From Bacteroidota bacterium (GTDB taxonomy: Bacteria > Bacteroidota > Bacteroidia > Chitinophagales > CAIODY01): a DNA stretch of 64,000 nt. Below are positions 11,239-38,660 of this stretch, in pieces. Position numbers and translations under genes: made by a program. A model generated the notes under the pieces. That model worked only from the letters and a program-made list of their open reading frames with translations. It searched no databases and was not told the origin of the DNA. The stretch spans positions 64,161 through 128,160 of the forward strand of contig JBJOOR010000006.1 of assembly GCA_046051225.1 (NCBI GenBank), read 5' to 3'. Numbering within the stretch: position 1 is the stretch's first letter; every line of letters starts with the position of its first letter.

Positions 11239-12072
11239 TTATTGTGGTTTAAAATAAAATTTATTGCCGTTGATAATACAATATGGTGGTTCGAATGGTG
11301 GAAAATAGGAGGCTCTTATGTACCGTTTTATTTTTTGTTTGCTCCAAGCCAAATCAATTTGCTTAATATCATTTATTTCATGGCGCAAATGAAAATTTTT
11401 CTTTCTTTTGGTAAATGAATTTTGTGGCAATAAAGTATAATTTCCTTTTATGATATTAGGCAAGGAAGTTTTAAAAAGGCGGATAGAACGATGTTCGGTT
11501 TCATCATACAAATCTTTTACAAAGCAATTTTCTGGTATCTTAAATCTATCTTCAAATACAATATCGCCATTATCAATACCCGATGCTAATTGATGAATAG
11601 TGGTGCCAAACTCTTTAGCTTTATCTATAATAGCAAATGAAAACTGATTGCACCCTCTATAATCGGGCAATGGAGCCATGTGTAGGTTTAAAGCTATTTG
11701 GCTGGCTTTATCTATATGCTGTTGTTGTAATATTTGATGATACTGCACCGAATAAATAATATCGCAATTAGGCATGGCATCAAGCGATGAAATTATTTTT
11801 ATTTTATTATGTTTGGCTAATTGCAGTACGCTTTGGTTTATATTCGGCTTTGCAATAGATTTTTTCGAAAAATGCTTGCTAGCCATCTCCATCTCATCTT
11901 TATTATCTTCAACAGCTAAGAATGGCATTTTTCGAAACCCTATATTATCATTACTTAATACACCAATTATTGTATAATTAAGCTTTTGTTGATTGGCAAT
12001 TAAATGTGCCAAACAATTATAACCAATGGGCTTTGAACCCATAAATATTATTTTTTTAGTTTCAGTTTTCAT
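11239..12072 (-). CDS. formyltransferase-family protein
   Basis: N-terminal IIFMGSKPIG nucleotide-binding start and NLHMAPLPDYRGCN (the HxSLLPxxRG-like formyl-transferase motif). Confidence 0.75.
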   Translation of the reverse strand: MKTETKKIIFMGSKPIGYNCLAHLIANQQKLNYTIIGVLSNDNIGFRKMPFLAVEDNKDEMEMASKHFSKKSIAKPNINQSVLQLAKHNKIKIISSLDAMPNCDIIYSVQYHQILQQQHIDKASQIALNLHMAPLPDYRGCNQFSFAIIDKAKEFGTTIHQLASGIDNGDIVFEDRFKIPENCFVKDLYDETEHRSIRLFKTSLPNIIKGNYTLLPQNSFTKRKKNFHLRHEINDIKQIDLAWSKQKIKRYIRASYFPPFEPPYCIINGNKFYFKPQ

Positions 12073-12123
12073 GGCTTTATTATTTCACAAATTTACAATT
12101 AAACTTTATAGTTTATTAATTAT

Positions 12124-12417
12124 ACTTCGTACTCAAGACTTTAAACTTCGTACTCAAGACTTTAAACTTCGTACTCAAGACATTATACTTCGTACTCAAG
12201 ACTTTAAACTTCGTACTCAAGACATTATACTTCGTACTCAAGACATTATACTTCGTATTCAAGACTTTATACTTCGTACTCAAGACTTTAAACTTCGTAC
12301 TCAAGACATTATACTTCTTACTCAAGACTTTATACTTCGTACTCAAGACTTTAAACTTCGTATTCAAGGCTTTAAACTTCTTACTCAAGACTCTAAACTT
12401 CTTGCCCAAGACTAAAA
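12124..12417 (+). repeat. 14 x 21-bp tandem repeat (consensus acttcgtactcaagactttaa) at the head of cassette array 1
   Basis: Counted directly. Units start at 12124, 12145, 12166 ... 12397. There are two main unit variants (..gactttaa and ..gacattat), and the last three units are degenerate. Confidence 0.95.
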
Positions 12418-12556
12418 ACGAGCAATAAAAAATAGCTGAAAAAAAATAATGGAAAGTAAAAACTTCCTTCTATTTTTGGATAGGATAAAAAGAAAACTGC
12501 CGCAATATACAAATTGGCGGCAAACCGTTTCAAAGACATCAATTCTATTATGAATC
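12418..12556 (+). promoter_or_regulatory. cassette leader copy R1 (-7 box plus TTGGCGGCAA hairpin)
   Basis: tatttttg (TAnnTTTG) at 12471-12478. Inverted repeat ctgccgcaat / attggcggcaa at 12497-12523. The ...caaagacatcaa... tail is shared with R2 and R3, ahead of the ATG at 12557. Confidence 0.55.
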
Positions 12557-13084
12557 ATGGATAAGTTCAAACAACTTTCTCTGGCAAACAAAACGCTTAT
12601 TATTTTAACAAGTGTAATGCTTGTTTATGGTTACTTGTGTCGCCTTTTAGACATTGACTTCTTTTGGGAAAGTAAAATGCTTGGTTGGGCACTTTTAATC
12701 GTAACTTTTATTGGCTTATTGTTGCAACGCATTCAAACAAAAAACAAACAAGACAAAAAAACACTTTCGGAGAATATTGCCATTGGACTTCTTGGAATTA
12801 CTTTTTTGGGATTGTGTGGCTGGTTAGTTTTTATTCCACAAACAGACAGCTATCAATTTGCAAAACAATATTTACTTACTGACAAAACGATTTCAAATGA
12901 ATTGGGTGGAGTGTATAATGTTGTTTTAGTTCCTTACGGCGGCATTACATCTTCCACTTCATACAAAGGCACAACTGGACAAGCTGACTTATACTTTATT
13001 GTAAAAGGGAAACAAAAGTTCAAAGACATTAATGTTGGACTTCATAAAGAAGTATCAGATTCAAATTGGACAATCTTAAAATGA
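12557..13084 (+). CDS. hypothetical membrane protein (cassette gene)
   Basis: 175 aa with three N-terminal hydrophobic helices and a soluble C-terminal domain. Its stop overlaps the next start (ATGA). Confidence 0.6.
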   Translation: MDKFKQLSLANKTLIILTSVMLVYGYLCRLLDIDFFWESKMLGWALLIVTFIGLLLQRIQTKNKQDKKTLSENIAIGLLGITFLGLCGWLVFIPQTDSYQFAKQYLLTDKTISNELGGVYNVVLVPYGGITSSTSYKGTTGQADLYFIVKGKQKFKDINVGLHKEVSDSNWTILK

Positions 13085-13410
13085 AATCATCAATGTTTAA
13101 AACACCATTTAGTTTTGACGGACGTATAAGACGAAAGGAATATTGCCTTTCGTTAATTATATTTATTGGTTGCTTTAGCATTATTGATATTTGTATTGAC
13201 GCTTTACCAAAAGCTGACTTTTTAGAACTGTTGTATATCCCTTTATGTTGGTTCATTTTAGCACAAGGGACGAAAAGATGCCATGACAAAGACAAAGCTG
13301 GTTGGTATCTAATTTATCCAATTTACATTTTCTCAATGATTTTTGCAGACGGCGACAAAAGAGAAAATCAGTATGGACAAAATCCGAAAGAAAACAATAT
13401 TGACTTGTAA
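13081..13410 (+). CDS. DUF805-family inner-membrane protein (cassette gene)
   Basis: FSFDGRIRRKEY ... GTKRCHDKDKAGWY ... NQYGQNP matches the DUF805 (YhaH-like) pattern. The start is taken at ATG 13081 (ATGA overlap) rather than the track start at 13066. Confidence 0.7.
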   Translation: MKSSMFKTPFSFDGRIRRKEYCLSLIIFIGCFSIIDICIDALPKADFLELLYIPLCWFILAQGTKRCHDKDKAGWYLIYPIYIFSMIFADGDKRENQYGQNPKENNIDL

Positions 13411-13526
13411 GACAATTCGGGCAACGCCAACTTGTTGTGGTTTCTATTATCTTTGTGATGGCATACGAAACACAAAGCCGCCCATGCAGCAGAGGTTAGA
13501 AACGTTGGAATCATTTTTATAAAGAC
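13411..13526 (+). promoter_or_regulatory. cassette repeat copy R2
   Basis: gggcaacgccaacttgttgtggtttct-attatctttg(-7 box at 13448-13455)...gccgcccatgcagcagaggttagaaacgttgg. Aligns with the copies at 36.3 and 37.2 kb on the reverse strand. Confidence 0.6.
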
Positions 13527-14171
13527 ATGACATATATCTTGACGATAGTATTTTTCTTTCTATACACTTTCGGACTTTTTTTATGGGACAAGAAAGTTAC
13601 ATGGAGACTTTCGCCTAAAATTTCCAAGACAATTAAATACTTTCACTACGCAGGGTTAAGCATTTTGCTTTTTGTAACAATTATGTATTCGCTTTTTGAC
13701 ATTGGATTACGTGGACAATTAGCAACGAGAGTAATTGAGATTTTTACATTATTAACAGGTTGCACATTCATTCTTATTTCGTCTAAGACAATTAACAATT
13801 GGGTTGAAAAAATTTACTTCAACATTTTTTCATTTTTACCAACAATTATAGGTTCGATTATGTGTATTCCTTTTTTGGGTGTTGTAATAATTATTTCAAT
13901 TTATGGGCATCTCTTTACACCAAACTTTGTATATTATCAAGATAATAAAATTAGAGTAGAAAGTAGTGTTAATAGCCCATTGGCAATTCCCAATACAGAT
14001 ATTTATCGTAAATATTTTCTCTTCGAAAAAAGAATTTATCGTGGTGCATACCTTGGACATGTTGATACTGTTATTGTTCTTTACGACAATGATTCGACAA
14101 GATTAATTGCTAAAACAAATACACAGTATGACGACAGTATTAAAAGAATTACTTTAAGTACAATAAAATAG
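13527..14171 (+). CDS. hypothetical polytopic membrane protein (cassette gene)
   Basis: 214 aa with about 5 hydrophobic segments and then a soluble tail. No recognisable family. Confidence 0.6.
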   Translation: MTYILTIVFFFLYTFGLFLWDKKVTWRLSPKISKTIKYFHYAGLSILLFVTIMYSLFDIGLRGQLATRVIEIFTLLTGCTFILISSKTINNWVEKIYFNIFSFLPTIIGSIMCIPFLGVVIIISIYGHLFTPNFVYYQDNKIRVESSVNSPLAIPNTDIYRKYFLFEKRIYRGAYLGHVDTVIVLYDNDSTRLIAKTNTQYDDSIKRITLSTIK

Positions 14172-14179
14172 CTCAGACA

Positions 14180-14470
14180 ATGACAATTAAAAGGACGATA
14201 ATAATTTTTATTTCAACTTTAGCAGGTTGTATTGTAGGTTTCTTGTTTAATGTTTTCGTTGTCTACAATATTATTATTCCCGACCCATGTTATTATCATA
14301 ATCATGACTTCAAAACGAGTAGGCTATTTAACTTGTTCTATGAAATAACTGGTGCAGAAGGTTATCATCCAACGCCAACAATGTTTAACATCATTTTTGC
14401 TTTGGTAGTTGGGGCATTACTCGGTTTTACATTATCATTTTATAAAACGAAAAAACAAAACAATAATTGA
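14180..14470 (+). CDS. hypothetical small membrane protein (cassette gene)
   Basis: 96 aa with two hydrophobic helices. It sits 8 nt after the previous gene with no repeat copy in between. Confidence 0.55.
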   Translation: MTIKRTIIIFISTLAGCIVGFLFNVFVVYNIIIPDPCYYHNHDFKTSRLFNLFYEITGAEGYHPTPTMFNIIFALVVGALLGFTLSFYKTKKQNNN

Positions 14471-14749
14471 AGAAAAAACAGCCCCAGACCATCGTAGTTT
14501 GTATTTGACAAGCGTATGTCTCCCGACTACGCTTTGGCGGAAAGCAATCTCTGATTGCAAAAACAAAATTATACAGTAGAAGCGAAGCTATGCTTTAGTT
14601 GTGTCGAAGTTCCACTTCGGCACTGCCTGATTCAAAATATTAATTGAACCAAGCAGCACCAAACCTGTCCCGAAGAAATCGGGAGCCCCTTCGCTCAAAA
14701 GCCATACTTCATCTTGGCGATAACATACAGTCGCTTTGCTGTTACGAGA

Positions 14750-14889
14750 CAATTTGAAAGTTCAGTTGTTTAGGCTATTTTTGTTTTCGTGTGACGGCAT
14801 ACGGAACATTAAGCCGCTAATGCAGAAAAGAATAAAAACTTTGGCGGCAATAAATCGGAACAACTTTGCAGACATCAAACAACGACAAA
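14750..14889 (+). promoter_or_regulatory. cassette repeat copy R3 (TTTG-N19-TAnnTTTG promoter plus leader)
   Basis: tttg at 14753-14756, a 19-nt spacer, tatttttg at 14776-14783, then cggc..gccg hairpin and ttggcggcaa at 14841-14850. Confidence 0.6.
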
Positions 14890-15330
14890 ATGAATAAATG
14901 GAAAATTGCTTTTTTGGTTTTCATAACAATTGCTGTTTTTTCGACAATATCTATTTTTGCTCAACAAACCAATAAAGCCGAATTAAGCAAATTAATTATT
15001 GGACAATGGATAAAAAAGATTGACAAAACCAAAGACGGCAAAGAATACTTTGGACTTAAATGCAAAGACACAATACAATATTTAATAAGTGGACAATATA
15101 TTTGGAAACAATGTGGAATTAACGAAACTGGAAACTGGAAAATATCGACAGACAATAAGAAGATTATTTTATACCAGCGAAAATGTAAATACTGGGGAAA
15201 ATATTTACAGACAAAAAACATAGGACAAATGGATATTCCAGTTGTTTCACTGACACAATCTCAACTGGTGACAATTATCTATGACGAAGAAAAGGGTGCA
15301 GTGAATCAGTTTTATAGCAGAACTCAATAA
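14890..15330 (+). CDS. hypothetical secreted protein (cassette gene)
   Basis: Start taken at ATG 14890 (MNKWKIAFLVFITIAVFSTISIFAQQ signal peptide), not the TTG at 14866 used by the ORF track. Confidence 0.6.
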   Translation: MNKWKIAFLVFITIAVFSTISIFAQQTNKAELSKLIIGQWIKKIDKTKDGKEYFGLKCKDTIQYLISGQYIWKQCGINETGNWKISTDNKKIILYQRKCKYWGKYLQTKNIGQMDIPVVSLTQSQLVTIIYDEEKGAVNQFYSRTQ

Positions 15331-15356
15331 AGCTTACACAACCCTGCTCCTTTAAA

Positions 15357-15584
15357 GCATAGCAAAGTGAATAGCCAACGAGGATGCAAAAGGTATTTAG
15401 TTTATAACTAATAAATAAAACTATTGCTACAGCAGTTTAACAAGCAATTTGAAAGTTTGGTTGTTTCTGCTACTTTTGTTTTCGTGTGGCATAGGTTAGA
15501 AACCTTGGGGCAAGCTTTGGGTACACTGCTAACATCAAACTAACTGCAAGAACCGAACAGACAAAACCAATGAGATACTTTTCA
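15357..15584 (+). repeat. cassette repeat copy R4 (228 nt, runs into the first 5 codons of the downstream gene)
   Basis: About 95% identical by eye to 16076-16304. tttg at 15448-15451, N19 spacer, tacttttg at 15471-15478. Ends in atgagatacttttca (MRYFS). Confidence 0.85.
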
Positions 15585-16037
15585 ATCATACTTATATTCA
15601 TCTTTAGTTTTTTAACTGCTTGCAACACTACACAAGTTTTGACACTTAAACACAAAAGATATTATTCGGAACGAAACATTTTAACCAGCGACACTACTCG
15701 TAAATTAATAGAAATGGTTTTCTATAACAAACCTCATATAATGGATGAAGAGTTTTTCTATAAGTTGACCTTTAAATTTATTGATACAACTGCTGCAAAA
15801 CAAAAGCGACTTATAAATTTAGTTGCAGACACTACAATTCTGAAGTGCTACTACTCAATCTTTTCCATTTGGAATTGGTCAGACGAACATTATACCATGA
15901 AAGGCGACATTGAAATAGTTGAATGGAAATACAACAGCATAACTCTCAAAGAAAATGTTTTTATAAACGACATCAGACGAAAAAAGAAATTGAAATTTAA
16001 AGGCAAACGAACATTTATAAAACACGAAGGTTGGTAA
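15570..16037 (+). CDS. hypothetical lipoprotein (cassette gene)
   Basis: MRYFSIILIFIFSFLTAC has a lipobox. 155 aa with no recognisable family. Confidence 0.6.
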   Translation: MRYFSIILIFIFSFLTACNTTQVLTLKHKRYYSERNILTSDTTRKLIEMVFYNKPHIMDEEFFYKLTFKFIDTTAAKQKRLINLVADTTILKCYYSIFSIWNWSDEHYTMKGDIEIVEWKYNSITLKENVFINDIRRKKKLKFKGKRTFIKHEGW

Positions 16038-16075
16038 CAAATATTTTACAACATTTCTGCTCGTCCTCGTTTGGG

Positions 16076-16304
16076 GCATAGCAAAGTGCATAGCCAACGA
16101 GGATGCAAGAGGTATTTAGTTTATAACTTATAAATAAAACTATTGCTACAGCGGCTTAACAAGCAATTTGAAAGTTCGGTTGTTTCTGCTACTTTTGTTT
16201 TCGTGTGGCAGAGGTTAGAAACTTTAGGGGCAAGCTTTGGGGACACTGCTAACATCAAACTAACTGCAAGAACCGAATAGACAAAACCAATGAGATACTT
16301 TTCA
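16076..16304 (+). repeat. cassette repeat copy R5 (229 nt)
   Basis: Near-identical to R4. A 10-bp hairpin (tcctcgtt.gg / ccaacgagga) lies around 16063-16105. The -7 box tacttttg is present. Ends in atgagatacttttca. Confidence 0.85.
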
Positions 16305-16691
16305 CTTGACGAACCACAACTATTAACGCTGCCAAGTAAAGACTGGTGGACAAACCGCAGAAGAAAATACAACATCGGTTTGGTGATTGCTGGTATTACT
16401 GCATTTATTTGTTACGCAATTTTAGGTTCATATTTAATCGCACCATACGACAACGAGTTTGAGATAACACTGTTTACAATTTTCTTTCAAGGCGTTGGCT
16501 ATTTAATTATGATGGCGATTGCAAACCTCTTTTACAATCTTGGTTATTGGGCTGACAAAAATTTTAATAAAGACAATAGTGAGAAATTCAGACAACGAGT
16601 ATTTAGTTTGGGGTTTTGTTTTTCATGTGGGCTTCCATTTTTAATTCCCATGCTGACAATTGTAATATATTTGGTAGAGTATAAAAAGTAA
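16290..16691 (+). CDS. hypothetical membrane protein (cassette gene)
   Basis: 133 aa with three to four hydrophobic helices. It shares only MRYFS with the previous cassette gene. Confidence 0.6.
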   Translation: MRYFSLDEPQLLTLPSKDWWTNRRRKYNIGLVIAGITAFICYAILGSYLIAPYDNEFEITLFTIFFQGVGYLIMMAIANLFYNLGYWADKNFNKDNSEKFRQRVFSLGFCFSCGLPFLIPMLTIVIYLVEYKK

Positions 16692-16736
16692 CCCTGTAGA
16701 AGTTAAGCTGCATTGGTTGTTGTAATCAAAATATAG

Positions 16737-35357: not shown

Positions 35358-35390
35358 ACACCTGACAGGTTTTTAAAACCTGTCAGGTGT
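35358..35390 (+). terminator. 13-bp perfect hairpin immediately after gyrA
   Basis: acacctgacaggt-ttttaaa-acctgtcaggtgt. A second hairpin with a T run follows at 35399-35441. Confidence 0.7.
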
Positions 35391-35441
35391 AATACAAAAC
35401 CGCCCCGAAGTTCAAGATGAATTTTGGGGCGGTTTGTTTTT
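35371..35441 (+). repeat. direct repeat DR-L bounding cassette island 2
   Basis: ttttaaaacctgtcaggtgtaatacaaaaccgccccgaagttcaagatgaattttggggcggtttgttttt. Matches 38566-38637 with 4 substitutions and 1 indel. Confidence 0.9.
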
Positions 35442-35527: not shown

Positions 35528-36190
35528 TCAAGATTGACGGACTGTTGCGTTTCGCTTGTTCTCTTGATAAACTCTATACAAAATATAAATGCAAGCAGCG
35601 GTTATTAAAAATATTCCAAGTTGATTATGATATGCTGGATGGTCAGGTGGTTTTACTTTACCCAAAAAAGTTTTAACAATGAAGCTACTGATGTTGAGTA
35701 AATAAAGAATGATGACAGAATAGAGGAGCTTGTTTAGATATTTATATCTCCAAAGAATGACTGGAATTATTATAATAGATGCAAAAGTAATGACTCCATG
35801 AAGTGTTCCACCAATATCTATTGGTCCATCTAAACTAATTGATTCGCCATGACTTCTGAAACGAAGAATTACAAAAATTAAATGAATTAAATGATTGCAA
35901 GTAAACAAGGTTAGTAAAACCAAAAAAGATTCCTTTTTCTTTTCAGCACTATAAATCTTTTTCAAACCATTGTAACCAACCATTAGTAAAGTGATGAGCA
36001 TAATGAATGATGATATTCTGCCTGCTAAACGAGCACATTTGTCAAAAATAAATTCTCGTTGAATTGCAAAAAAATTATTCAAATCTAAAGTGCTTGTCCA
36101 AGTTGCCCACAAGTAAATTGATAATTCTATGCAACAAATAAGTGCAATCAAAAGTGGTAATCGTTTCTTCGTCAACATAAGTAATTTCAT
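35528..36190 (-). CDS. hypothetical polytopic membrane protein (cassette gene)
   Basis: 220 aa with about 6 hydrophobic helices. No recognisable family. Confidence 0.6.
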   Translation of the reverse strand: MKLLMLTKKRLPLLIALICCIELSIYLWATWTSTLDLNNFFAIQREFIFDKCARLAGRISSFIMLITLLMVGYNGLKKIYSAEKKKESFLVLLTLFTCNHLIHLIFVILRFRSHGESISLDGPIDIGGTLHGVITFASIIIIPVILWRYKYLNKLLYSVIILYLLNISSFIVKTFLGKVKPPDHPAYHNQLGIFLITAACIYILYRVYQENKRNATVRQS

Positions 36191-36403
36191 TTTATTAGGA
36201 TTGAAACGGATTTATGTAACTTTTATTTCTTGTAGTCAGTTTCAAGTTAGCACTGTCGCCACGGGTTGCCGCCAACGTTTCTGGGCTTTGCTGCATGGGC
36301 AGCTTGGTGTTTCCTATGCCGTCTGCCTGCACAAAGGTAATAGAAACCACAACAAGTTGGCGTTGCCCGTTAACCGCCAATGAAGCAAGCCCATGTTAGC
36401 GGT
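36191..36403 (-). repeat. cassette repeat copy R6
   Basis: On the minus strand: accgctaacatgggcttgcttcattggcggttaacgggcaacgccaacttgttgtggtttctat-tacctttg(-7 box, 36332-36339)...agaaacgttggcggcaa(36266-36275)...ATG at 36190. Confidence 0.85.
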
Positions 36404-37079
36404 AGTGCTTTTCTTGTCCGTGTAATGTCTGCAATAATTGTTTGTCAGCGTTTAATTGTTTTGAGTATGCTTTTTTTATGTCGTCAATTGTTATTTTTTT
36501 GTCCAAGTCAATTGCTAATTTGTCAATACTATTTCTGTCGGTGATGAATTTGTTTTTAGCACCGAAGTAGATGTCAAAAATATATTGCGGTGAATATTTT
36601 TGTTCCATACTTCCATAACCTCTGTAAAATTGTCCAAGCACAATGACGTCAGTGAAGCCGTCCGAATTGATGTCAGAAAACGAAACTGCTAAAATTTTTT
36701 CAAAGCAACAGTTTGGATAAGAAAAGTTTGGCGACCGATAGCAAACGCTGTCGTTGAGTTTTAAGTAAAAATTGAAATGACTCCATGATGAGTCTTTTAA
36801 ATTGAGATGTTCTGTGTAATAAAAAAAATAAGCTGAACCTTTTCCATTCAATGTCAAGTGAAATGTTTGCTCGTTAGGATTTTGTTTAGCACCTGTAAAT
36901 GTTGAATGTATGCTGTCCAACGAAACATATTCTGCGTCAGACAAAGGCTTTGGATTTGTCAATGTCATGATGCTGTTGTCTGGCAAACTGTCGAAAAGTT
37001 TTAACCTTTTCTTCGTTGTTTGTCCGAAGCAATTTGTCAAGACAAAAGTCAAAAGAAATATGGAAAATGCTTTGTTCAA
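36396..37079 (-). CDS. hypothetical secreted protein (cassette gene)
   Basis: Signal peptide MNKAFSIFLLTFVLTNCFGQ. The SDINSDGFTDVIVLGQ segment resembles an FG-GAP/calcium-binding loop. Its stop codon lies inside repeat R6. Confidence 0.6.
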   Translation of the reverse strand: MNKAFSIFLLTFVLTNCFGQTTKKRLKLFDSLPDNSIMTLTNPKPLSDAEYVSLDSIHSTFTGAKQNPNEQTFHLTLNGKGSAYFFYYTEHLNLKDSSWSHFNFYLKLNDSVCYRSPNFSYPNCCFEKILAVSFSDINSDGFTDVIVLGQFYRGYGSMEQKYSPQYIFDIYFGAKNKFITDRNSIDKLAIDLDKKITIDDIKKAYSKQLNADKQLLQTLHGQEKHYR

Positions 37080-37290
37080 ATTTGGATTATTTGAAGTCGT
37101 TTTGTCGTCATTGTTTTATTGTCAAAATGAAAATCTATTTCGTCTCAAAGCATTGCCGCCAAAGGTTTTGGGCTTTGCTGCATTGGCGGCTTGGTGTTCC
37201 GTCTGCCGTCTACCTGCACAAAGGTAGTAGAAACCACAACAAGTTGGCGTTGCCCGTCAACGGCCAATGAAGCAAGCCCATGTTAGCGGT
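37080..37290 (-). repeat. cassette repeat copy R7
   Basis: The 138-nt core at 37153-37290 aligns with 36266-36403 and is nearly identical in the promoter-upstream ~75 nt. The -7 box tacctttg is at 37219-37226 (minus strand). Confidence 0.85.
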
Positions 37291-37338
37291 TCGGTCGTCT
37301 TTTTTCTGTCGTTAGTTTTCTTGTCATTCAGTCTATTA

Positions 37339-38052
37339 CTAGTCTTTTAATTTTACTCCAAGTCTGTCAGCAAGTTCTTTTACATATTCTTTATGTCCGT
37401 TGCTTTCAATATTGTTGTAGTAGTCTTGTATTAATTTACGCCCTTTTTGTTTGTCGCTCTGTAGTATAATTAAAGCCACGTCCAATTTGGCTCTAACTGA
37501 AGAACCTTCTATAACTCCCCAATTTCTACAAATTTTGTCCCTGTTCTCAAAAGTTTCAAGCCATTGAAGTCCGTGTGAATTTAGTCCTTCAATAACTTCA
37601 ATTGCGGTCTTTTCATTGTCGTCTGAAATTGACCACCAAAGGTCTTGTTTAATTGTCAAATGAGTAAGTCGTGTTCTAATTTGGCAGTCATAGTCTTGAT
37701 AAATGTCTTTGGGTTTATTGTAGCTATCAAGTTCATAAATCTCTTTAACCATAACACCTAAGTTAACCGTAAACTTTCCATAATAATTTTCTCTAAATCC
37801 AGGAATTACATACTTGTCACCAAATTCATATCTGCCACTTTGAATATTTATTACTTGATAAATTCCGTCTTCTGTTTCTCTGTTAAATGTCCGTCCTTTT
37901 TTCTTAAATCCTAATGGTTTCAAGAAATGAAAAATTTCTTTTTGAATGTTGTCCAAATGAGTTTTAAGCTCGACCTTATTTGTCAAATTTTGGTTGTCTG
38001 ATTTTTCGTCAGCCATTTTTGGTTTGTCTTTTAAGAAGTCAAAAATTCCCAT
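37339..38052 (-). CDS. DUF4304-like protein (cassette gene)
   Basis: FLKPLGFKKKGRTFNRETEDGIYQVINIQ resembles the N-terminal signature I recall for DUF4304. Cytoplasmic, 237 aa. Confidence 0.6.
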   Translation of the reverse strand: MGIFDFLKDKPKMADEKSDNQNLTNKVELKTHLDNIQKEIFHFLKPLGFKKKGRTFNRETEDGIYQVINIQSGRYEFGDKYVIPGFRENYYGKFTVNLGVMVKEIYELDSYNKPKDIYQDYDCQIRTRLTHLTIKQDLWWSISDDNEKTAIEVIEGLNSHGLQWLETFENRDKICRNWGVIEGSSVRAKLDVALIILQSDKQKGRKLIQDYYNNIESNGHKEYVKELADRLGVKLKD

Positions 38053-38220
38053 TTGTCAACTGTTTTTTCTTTTGCTGTGTCGTCTTTTAGCCTGACCGCT
38101 AACTCGTTTATACTTGCAACTATTTCGCACTTATCCACCCATTTTCGGTTGGCTTCGTGCTACAAAGAAACACTTTATTAAATTCTCAAACAATACCAAT
38201 TGGTTTGTATGGTTGGGTGC

Positions 38221-38560
38221 TTATTTCAAAAGAGAAGGACTAATCTCAAAACTTAAGTCCGAATTTCTAAAGTAGCGTTCCTATTTCAATATTTGAGTCC
38301 TAATCTGAAAATGTGAGCTTTAATTTTCAAACATGAGTTCAGATTTCCAAAGAAGGATTCTTGTTTCCAAAAGAAGTGTCTTTATTTCCAAAGAAGCATA
38401 CTAATCTGAAATTGTGAGTTCAGATTTTCAAATTAAGGCTCTTATTTCCGAAGAAGTTTCTAAGTTTCAAAATCTGAGCACTAATCTTAAAAAGTGAGTC
38501 TTAATTTTCAAACATGAGTTCAGATTTCCAGATTAGAGTTCTAATTCCCAAAAGTATGTC
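38221..38560 (-). repeat. about 17 x 19-21-bp degenerate tandem repeat at the head of cassette island 2
   Basis: Units such as ttatttccaaagaagcatac, taatctgaaaatgtgagcttt and taattttcaaacatgagttc. A ~60-bp higher-order period is visible: 38301-38360, 38402-38460 and 38482-38541 are alike. Confidence 0.85.
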
Positions 38561-38565
38561 GTTGG

Positions 38566-38637
38566 TTTTAAAAACCTGTCAGGTGTAATACAGAAACGCC
38601 CCGAAGTTCATGATGAATTTCGGGGCGGTTTGTTTTT
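38566..38637 (+). repeat. direct repeat DR-R bounding cassette island 2
   Basis: ttttaaaaacctgtcaggtgtaatacagaaacgccccgaagttcatgatgaatttcggggcggtttgtttttt. Carries only the 3' half of the gyrA hairpin plus the second hairpin and T run. Confidence 0.9.
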
Positions 38638-38660
38638 TCTTTTTTCAATTTTAAACCAAC

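What the first reader, a model, noticed from the sequence alone, without database searches (positions are those of the whole stretch)
13411..13526. The repeat family itself: Bacteroidetes -7 box (TAnnTTTG), TTGGCGGCAA box and bulged inverted repeats
I aligned the seven copies in sense orientation (R1 12418-12556, R2 13411-13526, R3 14750-14889, R4 15357-15584, R5 16076-16304, R6 36403-36191 rc, R7 37290-37080 rc). They share a core: [gggcaacgccaac]ttgttgtggtttct-N3-5-TAnnTTTG-(g/t)tg..cggcat/gacgRaaca..aagccgc..atgcag..agaaacgTTGGCGGCAA..(g)acatcaa/ctaac..ATG. TAnnTTTG is the established Bacteroidetes sigma-A -7 element. In R3, R4 and R5 a TTTG sits exactly 19 nt upstream, matching the -33/-7 consensus spacing. 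Each cassette therefore appears to carry its own promoter plus a conserved 70-140-nt leader. Superimposed on this are imperfect inverted repeats: gccaac..gtttct upstream of the -7 box pairs with agaaacgttggc about 70 nt downstream, leaving an 8-nt bulge. The 7-8-mer (A/G)TTGGCG(G/T) occurs up to three times per copy in a direct-inverted-direct arrangement. The cggc/gccg mini-hairpin tolerates a G-T pair in R6, which would fit RNA folding. Candidate roles are a shared operator for one regulator, a cis-regulatory leader RNA, or an attC-like recombination site. The sequence alone does not discriminate between them.
Basis: partly seen in the sequence, partly recalled or inferred. Interest (0 to 1): 0.8.

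Follow-up and report, generated by a model that had tools for sequence, protein, structure and literature searches.

The report
Integron-type cassette recombination sites in Bacteroidota
The repeats are the hairpin recombination sites (attC-like) that separate mobile gene cassettes in two small chromosomal cassette arrays; they belong to a large Bacteroidota family whose partner recombinase lacks the domain that defines classical integron integrases.

Summary
The repeat family is real. It is best explained as attC-type recombination sites, not primarily as promoters with leader RNAs.

**Window copies**
- A covariance model built only from unrelated metagenome copies hits R6 (57 bits) and R7 (48 bits) over its full length.
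- R2-R5 are decayed relics that no longer fold.
- R1 is only the post-crossover half, as expected at an attI-like junction.

**The wider family (about 132 nt)**
- It has YTAAC/GTTRGC ends and a covarying stem.
- It sits right after an ORF stop, in co-oriented arrays.
- In 90 consecutive pairs, the 5' end of a site is complementary to the 3' end of the preceding site. This is the signature of circular cassettes crossing over at G|TT.
- 'TTGGCGGCAA' is the R' core plus a 15-bp extended R stem.

**Recombinase**
- None was found among the window ORFs scanned.
- In related loci a tyrosine recombinase sits at the array's 5' boundary next to an attI-like junction.
- It is Xer/XerA-like and lacks the IntI-specific insertion.

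**Promoter reading**
- A strict TAnnTTTG occurs in only 20 of 131 family members.
- It lies 78-150 nt from the cassette ATGs, against 23-33 nt for housekeeping genes here.
- A promoter role is unproven and at most secondary.

**Closest known systems:** integron CALINs and Bacteroidales rAID-1.

The parts
12120..12413 (.). Tandem repeat, 14 x 21 nt (TTAAACTTCGTACTCAAGACT), at the 5' edge of array 1
   Evidence: TRF: 90% matches, score 448; the repeat finder D1. Function unexplained.
12495..12525 (+). R1: attI-like junction plus the R' box of the first cassette. The crossover-equivalent point is 12513|12514. TTGGCGGCAA is at 12514-12523.
   Evidence: Only the 3' half aligns with the family. The sequence left of the junction (GCCGCAATATACAAA|TT) resembles by eye the attI-like junctions of recombinase-bearing loci; this was not scored.
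12514..13504 (+). Cassette 1: ORFs 12557-13084 (membrane protein, no Pfam family) and 13081-13410 (DUF805)
   Evidence: ORF list, Pfam, gene calls on the source contig
13418..13510 (+). R2: attC relic truncated at the 5' end. It lacks R''/L''. The R' GTT is at 13504-13506, and homology ends after GTTGG.
   Evidence: 92% match to the R6 core (I2). No covariance-model hit. No significant fold, z -0.9.
13505..14840 (+). Cassette 2: ORFs 13527-14171 and 14180-14470, plus about 250 nt without an ORF. That stretch holds a possible extra R'-like box, TTGGCGGAAA, at 14534-14543.
   Evidence: The extra box is not verified.
14717..14852 (+). R3: full-length but decayed attC (GATAAC ... TTTGGCGGCAA)
   Evidence: Central block matches. 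The model hits only the 3' part, 15.9 bits, E 0.17. No fold, z +0.1/+0.3.
14841..15504 (+). Cassette 3: ORF 14890-15330 (signal-peptide protein)
15372..15512 (+). R4: attC relic with an internal deletion of about 31 nt. Its R' is CTT instead of GTT.
   Evidence: Alignment; model 9.4 bits, not significant; fold lacks R''/R' closure
15505..16224 (+). Cassette 4: ORF 15570-16037 (lipoprotein-like)
16091..16231 (+). R5: attC relic, near-duplicate of R4 (95% over 229 nt, including the first five codons of the next ORF). Its R' is TTT.
16225..16736 (+). Cassette 5: ORF 16290-16691 (membrane protein). No attC follows; the array ends at the cmk gene.
38560..38640 (-). Left copy of the 74-nt direct repeat that brackets the array-2 module. 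It is the terminator region of the glyoxalase gene.
   Evidence: blastn: 38640-38560 vs 35441-35368, 93%
38241..38560 (-). Degenerate tandem repeat, about 16 x 20 nt, at the 5' edge of array 2
   Evidence: the repeat finder D2, TRF, sequence
38101..38130 (-). attI-like junction of array 2: GCAAGTATAAACGA|GTTAGCGGT, with GTT at 38103-38101
   Evidence: 11/15 match to the reverse complement of the R'' extension of R7. This is the best such match in the 4 kb upstream. It resembles by eye the junctions of L089 and L005; not scored.
37151..37294 (-). R7: attC of cassette A. Full length, with R'' GCTAAC and R' TTTGGC (G>T at the crossover base).
   Evidence: Covariance model R1: 48.3 bits, E 2.9e-8, positions 1-144. 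nhmmer E 1.9e-7. Bottom-strand fold z -3.0.
37339..38052 (-). ORF of cassette A (DUF4304)
   Evidence: Pfam E 9.5e-21
36264..36407 (-). R6: attC of cassette B. Full length, R'' GCTAAC ... R' GTTGGC, with GTT at 36276-36274. The stop codon TAA of the upstream ORF lies inside R''.
   Evidence: Covariance model R1: 57 bits, E 4.6e-10, positions 1-144. nhmmer E 2e-10. About 90% identical by eye to L001:4805-4948.
36396..37079 (-). ORF of cassette B (lipoprotein-like, no Pfam family)
35528..36190 (-). ORF of cassette C (membrane protein). No attC follows.
35368..35441 (-). Right copy of the 74-nt direct repeat

Best explanation
The repeats are attC-type recombination sites of integron-like gene cassettes. 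Each is an imperfect hairpin of about 132 nt that starts right after a cassette ORF.

**Anatomy of a site**
- It begins with R'' (..GCTAAC), followed by a 2-3-nt spacer and L'' (GGGYTTGSC...).
- A long covarying stem encloses a branched variable region.
- It ends with L' (..GSCAAGCCC), then nnAAAC, then R' (GTTRGC).

**Cassette boundary.** The boundary lies at G|TT of R'. The 12 nt after GTT ('TTGGCGGCAA..') belong to the next cassette and pair with that cassette's own R'' extension once it is circular.

**The two window arrays.** Both are orphan arrays.
- Array 2 (38103-35528, minus strand) keeps two intact-looking sites, R7 and R6.
- Array 1 (12514-16691, plus strand) holds only decayed relics, R2-R5.
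- Each array starts at an attI-like junction (R1 at 12513|12514; 38103).
- No recombinase was found among the window ORFs scanned.

**Shown:** family membership, covariation, cassette-specific complementarity, array architecture, and the association with a recombinase in related loci.

**Inferred by analogy with integrons:** the site acts as folded single-stranded DNA (bottom strand). A recombinase encoded elsewhere in the genome excises and inserts cassettes. The relics are no longer recombinogenic.
For: **Family membership of the window copies**
- L001, from a Chitinophagales MAG, holds a near-copy of R6/R7. It sits in an array of unrelated ORFs separated by sites that differ in sequence but share YTAAC...GTTAGC ends.
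Nearly all are ~132-nt sites of one architecture.
- On 43 of these sites, 92.8% of cells are paired. There are 98 double-change cells against 35 in shuffles (0/500 shuffles reach this). Slid controls pair at 26-47%.
- Model R1, built without any window sequence, hits R6 at 57 bits and R7 at 48 bits over its full length. It gives 217 hits in 98 loci, mostly as several same-strand sites per locus.

**Cassette signature**
- R''(k) is complementary to the tail of R'(k-1): 6.8/9 matches, against 4.7 with its own R' and 4.75 at random (Wilcoxon 1.4e-8, 55 pairs).
- With 90 pairs the complementarity runs from GTT+1 to GTT+12 and then drops to random.
- The stop codon of the upstream ORF is within 30 nt of R'' in 60% of sites. 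The next ATG is a median 55 nt after R'.
- The longest ORF between consecutive sites is on the sense strand in 91 of 126 cassettes.
- Cassette cargo is very diverse: 70 Pfam families in 84 ORFs, including Cass2, beta-lactamases and Por_Secre_tail.

**Recombinase in related loci**
- Six loci carry a recombinase, always at the 5' boundary of the array.
- In four of them an attI-like junction was located by a 13/15 match to the reverse complement of the first attC's R''.
- Loci chosen through recombinase homology alone (L128, L131) carry the same attC family downstream.

**Strand**
- With DNA parameters the bottom strand folds better in 92 of 131 sites (p 6e-7). With RNA parameters there is no bias.
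- The systematic mismatch in the R stem is A.C on the top strand, which is G.T on the bottom strand.
Against: - No recombinase was found among the 40 window ORFs scanned, so activity here is unproven.
- R7 has T instead of G at the crossover base.
- R2-R5 do not score with the model and do not fold. Calling them relics rests on sequence homology to R6/R7 only.
- The associated recombinases lack the IntI-specific insertion that contacts extrahelical bases in classical integrons. The mechanism may therefore differ from IntI.
- No clearly bulged extrahelical bases were identified.
- The IntegronFinder attC model could not be run.
- No strain polymorphism was available to show cassette gain or loss.
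Confidence: 0.85

Rival explanations
1. Promoter plus leader. Each repeat supplies a Bacteroidota sigma-A promoter (-33 TTTG / -7 TAnnTTTG) and a conserved 5' leader for the gene downstream. This could also be a secondary function layered on the attC.
For: - TAnnTTTG is present in all seven window copies, with TTTG at N19 in R3-R5.
- In R3-R5 the best-conserved 44-nt block (89-91%) is exactly this -33/-7 segment, while the hairpin has decayed.
- Across the family, AnnTTTG is sense-biased (168 vs 82) and far above shuffles (24).
- TAnnTTTG is a real upstream signal in this genome, 3.3-fold enriched before genes.
Against: - Strict TAnnTTTG occurs in only 20 of 131 family sites.
- The phased units are about 19 nt apart, which is not the -33/-7 spacing.
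- The motif lies 78-150 nt before the cassette ATGs, against 23-33 nt for housekeeping genes here.
- The full pattern occurs 5 times in the window against 6.7 expected. Three of those are copies of one another.
- The element belongs structurally to the upstream cassette.
Confidence: 0.25
2. Cis-regulatory RNA. The conserved hairpin acts in the mRNA as a leader, attenuator, terminator or insulator between genes.
For: The stem covaries, which sequence alone cannot assign to RNA or DNA. A T.G pair in the L stem is conserved on the sense strand in 36 of 43 sites.
Against: - No Rfam family matches at gathering or permissive thresholds.
- With RNA parameters there is no sense-strand advantage (66 vs 64). 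DNA parameters favour the antisense strand.
- An RNA element does not explain the complementarity between one site's 5' end and the previous site's 3' end.
- It also does not explain the adjacent recombinases with attI-like junctions.
Confidence: 0.05
3. A shared operator. The TTGGCGGCAA box and its inverted copies bind one regulator that co-regulates the small genes.
For: The box recurs in direct-inverted-direct arrangement within R6/R7.
Against: - The box varies from cassette to cassette across the family at the N and Y positions. It covaries with the R'' of the same cassette rather than being fixed.
- One-mismatch matches to the 10-mer in the window are barely above chance: 13 against 5.7 expected.
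Confidence: 0.03
4. A selfish intergenic repeat of REP or MITE type, spread by transposition and unrelated to the neighbouring ORFs.
For: Hairpin-forming, GC-rich (0.45-0.55) repeats in an AT-rich genome (0.33).
Against: - Orientation relative to the flanking ORFs is consistent, and position relative to stop codons is fixed.
- Sites occur in tandem arrays with one site per cassette.
- The cassette-specific R''/R' complementarity fits a cassette boundary, not a transposon end.
- Only the two arrays in 64 kb carry copies.
Confidence: 0.03

Closest known systems
Integron attC sites and CALINs (clusters of attC sites lacking an integron integrase; Cury et al. 2016, PMC4889954; IntegronFinder 2.0, PMC9024848)
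   Same: - Imperfect-palindrome sites with YTAAC/GTTR.. ends and a second inner inverted pair.
- Variable sequence with conserved structure.
- Located 3' of each ORF, in co-oriented arrays.
- Crossover at G|TT, so R'' matches the start of its own cassette.
- An attI-like junction at the first cassette.
- Highly diverse cargo.
- The bottom strand folds better. In integrons only the folded bottom strand is recombined (PMC11023631).
   Different: - R' is GTTRGC (C at position 6) and the R stem extends to 15 bp with a fixed mismatch.
- The spacer is asymmetric: 2-3 nt against 5-6 nt.
- No clear extrahelical bases were identified.
- The variable region holds three phased ~19-nt units.
- The recombinases next to related arrays lack the IntI-specific insertion and score below the integron-integrase cut-off.
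- The host is Bacteroidota. In complete genomes that group showed only In0 elements plus one complete integron, in Salinibacter (PMC9024848).
[quoted passage not shown]
   Same: - Bacteroidota host.
- A XerD-like tyrosine recombinase at the 5' end.
- Arrays of co-oriented short genes.
- Repetitive intergenic sequences described as 'reminiscent of integrons'.
- The recombinase is co-directional with the array in L089, L039, L128 and L131.
   Different: - rAID-1 is defined by at least 44% identity to the B. fragilis recombinase and by orphan immunity cargo.
- Cargo here is broad: restriction-modification systems, beta-lactamases, peptidases, secreted T9SS proteins.
- The named homologues are from Saprospiraceae, Cytophagales, Microscillaceae and Cyclobacteriaceae, not Bacteroidales.
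- Four of the six pattern-found loci with a recombinase have it divergent from the array.
- Sequence relatedness to the rAID-1 recombinase or to its intergenic motif could not be tested.
Species-specific attC families of sedentary chromosomal integrons (Vibrio repeats, VCR/VXR; PMC13638679)
   Same: Long attC sites (over 120 nt) that are highly similar within a lineage while flanking unrelated ORFs. R6, R7 and L001:4805-4948 are about 90% alike with different cargo.
   Different: VCRs belong to an array of hundreds of cassettes beside a canonical IntIA. Here the arrays hold 3-5 cassettes, have no integrase nearby, and are partly decayed.
Xer-dependent use of folded single-stranded DNA (CTX phage attP; recalled from the literature, not checked here)
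   Same: It shows that Xer-type recombinases without an IntI insertion can recombine a folded single-stranded hairpin. This is the step inferred for this family.
   Different: It concerns a single phage site recombining with dif. There are no cassettes and no arrays.

Membership tests
Integron attC site | Terminal inverted core sites R'' (RYYYAAC) and R' (GTTRRRY) | tested here: met
   R6 has GCTAAC...GTTGGC and R7 has GCTAAC...TTTGGC. The family consensus is YTAAC...GTTRGC, with R-box pairs 95.8% paired. One deviation: position 6 of R' is C rather than a purine.
Integron attC site | An inner inverted pair (L''/L') forming a stem conserved in structure rather than sequence | tested here: met
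   Helices 2 and 3 are 91-92% paired. Nine of their 14 pairs show compensatory changes; shuffle and slide controls are far lower.
Integron attC site | Unpaired central spacer between the R and L boxes, and extrahelical bases that mark the bottom strand | tested here: inconclusive
   A spacer exists but is asymmetric: 2-3 nt on the 5' side, nnAAAC on the 3' side. There is a conserved T.G (top) = A.C (bottom) position in the L stem, and an A.C (top) = G.T (bottom) position in the R stem. No clearly bulged G or T was identified.
Integron attC site | Cassette boundary inside R' (G|TT): R'' pairs with the start of its own cassette, not with the adjacent R' tail | tested here: met
   55 pairs: 6.8/9 against 4.7/9 (own R') and 4.75/9 (random), p 1.4e-8. 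90 pairs: the effect runs over GTT+1 to GTT+12. In the window, R7's R'' matches the start of cassette A 11/15.
Integron attC site | Position directly 3' of the cassette ORF, in co-oriented arrays | tested here: met
   The stop codon TAA of window ORF 36396-37079 lies inside the R'' of R6.
Integron attC site | Recombined by the integrase as a folded bottom strand | not testable with these tools
   Only indirect evidence: the bottom strand is more stable in 92 of 131 sites with DNA parameters.
Integron attC site | Recognised by the IntegronFinder attC covariance model | not tested
   That model is not available here, and Rfam holds no attC family that matched.
Complete integron | An adjacent integron integrase (IntI) carrying the IntI-specific additional domain | tested here: not met
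   No recombinase was found among the 40 window ORFs scanned. In related loci the recombinase matches TIGR02249 in two stretches that skip profile positions ~180-237, at 157-212 bits against a cut-off of 265. The alignment with IntI1 shows the ALER-containing insertion missing. The best PDB matches are XerA, and VchIntIA matches only in two pieces.
Complete integron | An attI site next to the integrase where the first cassette is joined | tested here: met
   This holds in related loci: 13/15 junction matches in L005, L031, L004 and L089, with the motif GCGTAAATTTRGAT|GTTAC. In the window only junction remnants are present (12513|12514; 38103).
CALIN | At least two attC sites clustered with no integrase nearby | tested here: met
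   R6 and R7 are 887 nt apart, both with E below 1e-7 against the family model. No recombinase was found among the window ORFs scanned. The IntegronFinder criteria themselves were not run.
rAID-1 (Bacteroidales) | A 5' XerD-like recombinase at least 44% identical to B. fragilis BF9343_RS08045 | not testable with these tools
The window has no recombinase. The homologues found are named from Cytophagales and Saprospiraceae.
rAID-1 (Bacteroidales) | Cargo dominated by orphan immunity genes | tested here: not met
   70 different Pfam families occur among 84 cassette ORFs, mostly enzymes, restriction-modification systems and secreted proteins. The window cassettes are DUF805, DUF4304 and unannotated membrane proteins or lipoproteins.
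Bacteroidota sigma-A promoter | -7 TAnnTTTG with -33 TTTG about 19 nt upstream, at the genome's usual distance from the start codon | tested here: inconclusive
   The -7 box is in all window copies and the -33 box at N19 only in R3-R5. The distance to the ATG is 78-150 nt, against 23-33 nt for housekeeping genes. Only 20 of 131 family sites keep the strict motif. Transcription starts cannot be tested here.
Described structured RNA (Rfam) | A match to a curated covariance model | tested here: not met
   No match in the window or in 18 loci at gathering score. Only chance-level hits appear at E up to 5.

The most novel reading that the evidence does not exclude
Environmental Bacteroidota (Saprospiraceae, Cytophagales, Chitinophagales and relatives) carry a widespread integron-like gene-capture system that has not been characterised as such.
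- It would run on a Xer/XerA-like tyrosine recombinase with no IntI-specific domain.
- It would use ~132-nt folded sites with a 15-bp R stem.
- The three phased AnnTTTG units in those sites would double as outward promoters or as arm-type binding sites.
- The system would seed small orphan arrays at secondary chromosomal sites, marked by 21-nt tandem repeats.

If so, hairpin-site cassette capture would not depend on the domain thought essential for integron function.
Probability: 0.3. Interest if true: 0.85.

Novelty: new variant of a known kind. Interest (0 to 1): 0.62.

Why it matters
Integrons are defined by an integrase whose extra domain reads the extrahelical bases of folded attC sites. 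In complete genomes they are nearly absent from Bacteroidota (PMC9024848).

Here a large, structurally conserved attC-like family shows the full cassette signature: crossover at G|TT, attI-like junctions and very diverse cargo. Yet it is tied to Xer-like recombinases that lack that domain.

If those recombinases do move these cassettes, three things follow:
- The range of integron-type gene capture extends to a major environmental phylum.
- The relation between Xer recombinases and integron integrases becomes directly testable.
- Integrase-based searches would miss these systems.

It may also give a mechanistic frame (hairpin sites, a defined crossover point) for the rAID-1 arrays of gut Bacteroidales, whose repeats have only been called 'reminiscent of integrons'. 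Whether the two are related was not tested.

For this window specifically, the result is more ordinary: two small, partly decayed orphan cassette arrays.

Tried and rejected
**Searches that led nowhere**
- Rfam scans of the window and 18 loci found nothing.
- The genome-collection scan with the central block gave a single locus, L001. That locus nevertheless turned out to be the key lead.
- Look-ups of the flanking housekeeping proteins in other assemblies returned only identical strains. Their contigs break at the repeats, so there is no presence/absence polymorphism.
- tblastn of the ten window cassette proteins against all fetched loci gave no hits, so there is no direct evidence that these particular cassettes move.
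- GC skew gave no usable information on array orientation relative to replication.

**Ideas considered and dropped**
It appears in R6's minimum-energy fold. However, its extension is not complementary to the start of cassette 1 by my own hand count (4 of 9 positions, no tool call; the random level was 4.75/9). It is part of the variable region in R6, R7 and L001.
- The conserved 'leader' after R' (GGCAAC.CGTGGCGAC..TGCTAAC..). It is shared by some cassettes only. Across 182 sites nothing is conserved beyond ~GTT+12 except A-richness.
- The 21-nt tandem repeats as expanded variable-region units. The model similarity is not significant.
- The full -33/-7 pattern as a test of promoter identity. 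It is not enriched in the window.
Full report
**Observation**

The window is a Bacteroidota chromosome segment with T9SS genes, PorP/SprF and Por_Secre_tail. It comes from a 275-kb JGI metagenome contig.

Two runs of small, mostly unannotated ORFs interrupt housekeeping genes:
- Array 1 is on the plus strand at 12.5-16.7 kb, between a formyltransferase gene and cmk.
- Array 2 is on the minus strand at 38.1-35.5 kb, between a glyoxalase gene and gyrA.

- R4/R5, R6/R7, R3/R4/R5 and the cross-array pairs are recovered at 78-95% identity.
- A 22-base central pattern hits R2, R3, R6 and R7 with none expected.
- R1 shares only its 3' end with the rest.

**The lead**

One scan of a species-representative genome collection with the central block found a single locus, L001, in a Chitinophagales MAG.
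- It holds a copy about 90% identical by eye to R6/R7.
- That copy sits in an array of unrelated ORFs. They are separated by ~130-150-nt elements of quite different sequence.
- Every element begins ..GCTAAC or ..CCTAAC and ends GTTAGC or GTTAGGC.
- Each folds as a long imperfect hairpin closed by those ends.

This is the anatomy of integron attC sites. It also showed that the true unit in the window runs from GCTAAC to GTTGGC, at 36407-36264 and 37294-37151.

**A large family**

Nearly every hit is a ~132-nt site of the same architecture.

On 43 of them the R and L helices are 92.8% paired:
- There are 98 double-change cells against 35 in shuffles (0 of 500 shuffles reach this).
- Pairing falls to 26-47% when the partner is slid by 1-3 columns.

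A covariance model built from these sites alone, with no window sequence, gave:
- R6 at 57 bits (E 4.6e-10) and R7 at 48 bits (E 2.9e-8), both over all 144 positions.
- Only the 3' part of R3, at E 0.17.
- Nothing significant for R2, R4 or R5.

R2, R3 and R5 also fold no better than shuffled sequence, and R4 folds without joining its ends. R6 and R7 are therefore members of the family. R2-R5 are relics recognisable only by homology to R6/R7. The same model finds 217 sites in 98 loci, typically several on one strand of a locus.

**Cassette signature**

In an integron array the crossover lies between the G and TT of R'. The bases after GTT therefore belong to the next cassette and match that cassette's own R''.

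This holds here:
- In 55 consecutive pairs, the 9 nt before AAC of site k are complementary to the 9 nt after GTT of site k-1 at 6.8 of 9 positions. The figure is 4.7 with the site's own R' and 4.75 at random (p 1.4e-8).
- With 90 pairs the effect spans GTT+1 to GTT+12 and then falls to random.
- There is a fixed mismatch at positions 7-8. It is A.C on the top strand, hence G.T on the bottom strand.

Sites start right after the upstream ORF:
- The stop codon is within 30 nt of R'' in 60% of sites, and inside R'' in 10%. R6 is one of the latter.
- The next ATG follows a median 55 nt after R'.

Cargo is very diverse. There are 70 Pfam families in 84 cassette ORFs, including Cass2, beta-lactamases, peptidases and T9SS-sorted proteins.

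**Recombinase and attI**

No recombinase was found among the 40 window ORFs scanned.
- Among the 120 loci, six carry a tyrosine recombinase, always at the 5' boundary of the array. In four it is divergent from the array and in two co-directional.
- In four of these, the start of the first cassette was located between the recombinase gene and the first ORF. This was done by a 13/15 match to the reverse complement of the first attC's R''. The flanking motif is GCGTAAATTTRGAT|GTTAC.
- The same test places the start of window array 2 at 38103 (11/15).
- R1 is the equivalent junction of array 1, which is why it has only the post-crossover half.

The recombinases are not canonical IntI:
- They match the integron-integrase profile in two stretches that skip positions ~180-237, and they score below its cut-off.
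- They lack the ALER-containing insertion when aligned with IntI1.
- Their best solved relatives are XerA, and VchIntIA matches only in two pieces.

Their homologues are numerous. The top 120 clusters are 69-76% identical and are named XerD or site-specific integrase in Saprospiraceae, Microscillaceae, Cyclobacteriaceae and Cytophagales. Two loci chosen through this protein alone carry same-family attCs downstream.

**RNA or DNA, and which strand**

Covariation cannot tell RNA from DNA.
- With DNA parameters the antisense (bottom) strand folds better in 92 of 131 sites (p 6e-7).
- With RNA parameters there is no bias, 66 against 64.
- No Rfam family matches.

Together with the junction logic, this favours a single-stranded DNA substrate as in integrons (PMC11023631). 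This step is inferred, not shown.

**The promoter idea**

- TAnnTTTG in the window copies aligns with the middle of three phased ~19-nt units in the variable region. Their AnnTTTG lies at 42/43, 61/62 and 79/80 nt before R'.
- AnnTTTG is sense-biased (168 against 82) and far above shuffles (24). The strict motif occurs in only 20 of 131 sites.
- In this genome TAnnTTTG lies 23-33 nt before the ATG of seven housekeeping genes. The attC-borne motif is 78-150 nt away.
- The full TTTG-N17-21-TAnnTTTG pattern occurs five times in the window against 6.7 expected, and three of those are R3-R5.

In favour of the idea, the -33/-7 block is the best-kept part of the decayed R3-R5. I rate a secondary promoter role at about 0.25.

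**Comparison with known systems**

The elements work like integron attC sites, and the window arrays fit the definition of CALINs (PMC4889954, PMC9024848). The system as a whole fails one defining test of integrons, the IntI-specific domain.

The closest Bacteroidota precedent is rAID-1 of Bacteroidales. It has a XerD-like recombinase, co-oriented short genes and repeats 'reminiscent of integrons' (bioRxiv 10.1101/471110; PMC12247911). Its cargo is immunity genes, and its sequence relation to this family could not be tested.

I found no paper in the searchable library that describes this attC family or its crossover logic.

**Verdict**

The finding is a real and well-explained feature: attC-type cassette recombination sites, two intact-looking and four decayed, in two orphan arrays.

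As an item in this window it is a member of a known kind. The family it belongs to is a variant, with an AD-less recombinase, an extended R stem and phased units in the variable region. That family deserves experimental follow-up.

Noticed in passing
window 12120-12413 and 38241-38560; L008 7102-7357; L027 2691-2926: Arrays of 20-21-nt tandem repeats (11-16 units) lie just 5' of the first junction or attC in four arrays that have no adjacent recombinase. None occurs in the six pattern-found loci that carry the recombinase. The unit sequences differ between loci. Their function is unknown.
   Followed up: partly
window 38640-38560 and 35441-35368: A 74-nt direct repeat (93% identical) brackets the whole array-2 module. 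It is the terminator region between the convergent glyoxalase and gyrA genes. This suggests the module (tandem repeat + junction + three cassettes) arrived as a unit, by site-specific or Campbell-type integration.
   Followed up: partly
window 15357-15584 and 16076-16304: R4 and R5 are 95% identical over 229 nt. The identity includes ~60 nt after R' and the first five codons (MRYFS) of two otherwise unrelated ORFs. This points to a recent duplication or gene conversion across cassette boundaries.
   Followed up: no
attC variable region, family-wide (A3 columns ~40-110): There are three phased ~19-nt units (consensus about GTGCTnnAATTGAACATTT). Their AnnTTTG lies at fixed distances (42/43, 61/62, 79/80 nt) from R' and is sense-biased. 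They could be protein-binding sites or structural branches.
   Followed up: partly
L128 9634-9978, L129 9493-9828, L130 2350-2685; L005 80-151, L031 413-483: An ssb gene lies directly upstream of the recombinase in three recombinase-anchored loci. A tRNA gene lies beside the recombinase in two pattern-found loci.
   Followed up: no
L005 450-1523, L089 256-1326 and homologues P0001-P0120: The array-associated recombinases carry a conserved N-terminal extension of ~80 aa before the SAM-like domain, with no solid Pfam match (DUF5710 at 22 bits, below its cut-off). It could be an arm-type DNA-binding domain.
   Followed up: no
window, upstream of genes starting at 12072(-), 22115, 24162, 41419(-), 43417(-), 59752, 61731: TAnnTTTG lies 23-33 nt before the start codon of seven housekeeping genes. 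This implies very short leaders as the norm in this organism.
   Followed up: yes
L003, L125, L126, L127: Contigs of the same organism from other sequencing runs end at or near R5 or R7. The repeats break short-read assemblies, so such arrays are probably under-represented in MAGs.
   Followed up: no
L001 13-761, L027 2943-4601, L128 11362-13739 and 14458-15654, L131 12310-14003: Several arrays carry restriction-modification genes, a GmrSD-like nuclease and a group II intron reverse transcriptase as cargo, or next to the first attC.
   Followed up: no
window 14534-14543: TTGGCGGAAA lies in an ORF-less stretch of cassette 2. It may be the R' box of a further, fully decayed attC.
   Followed up: no
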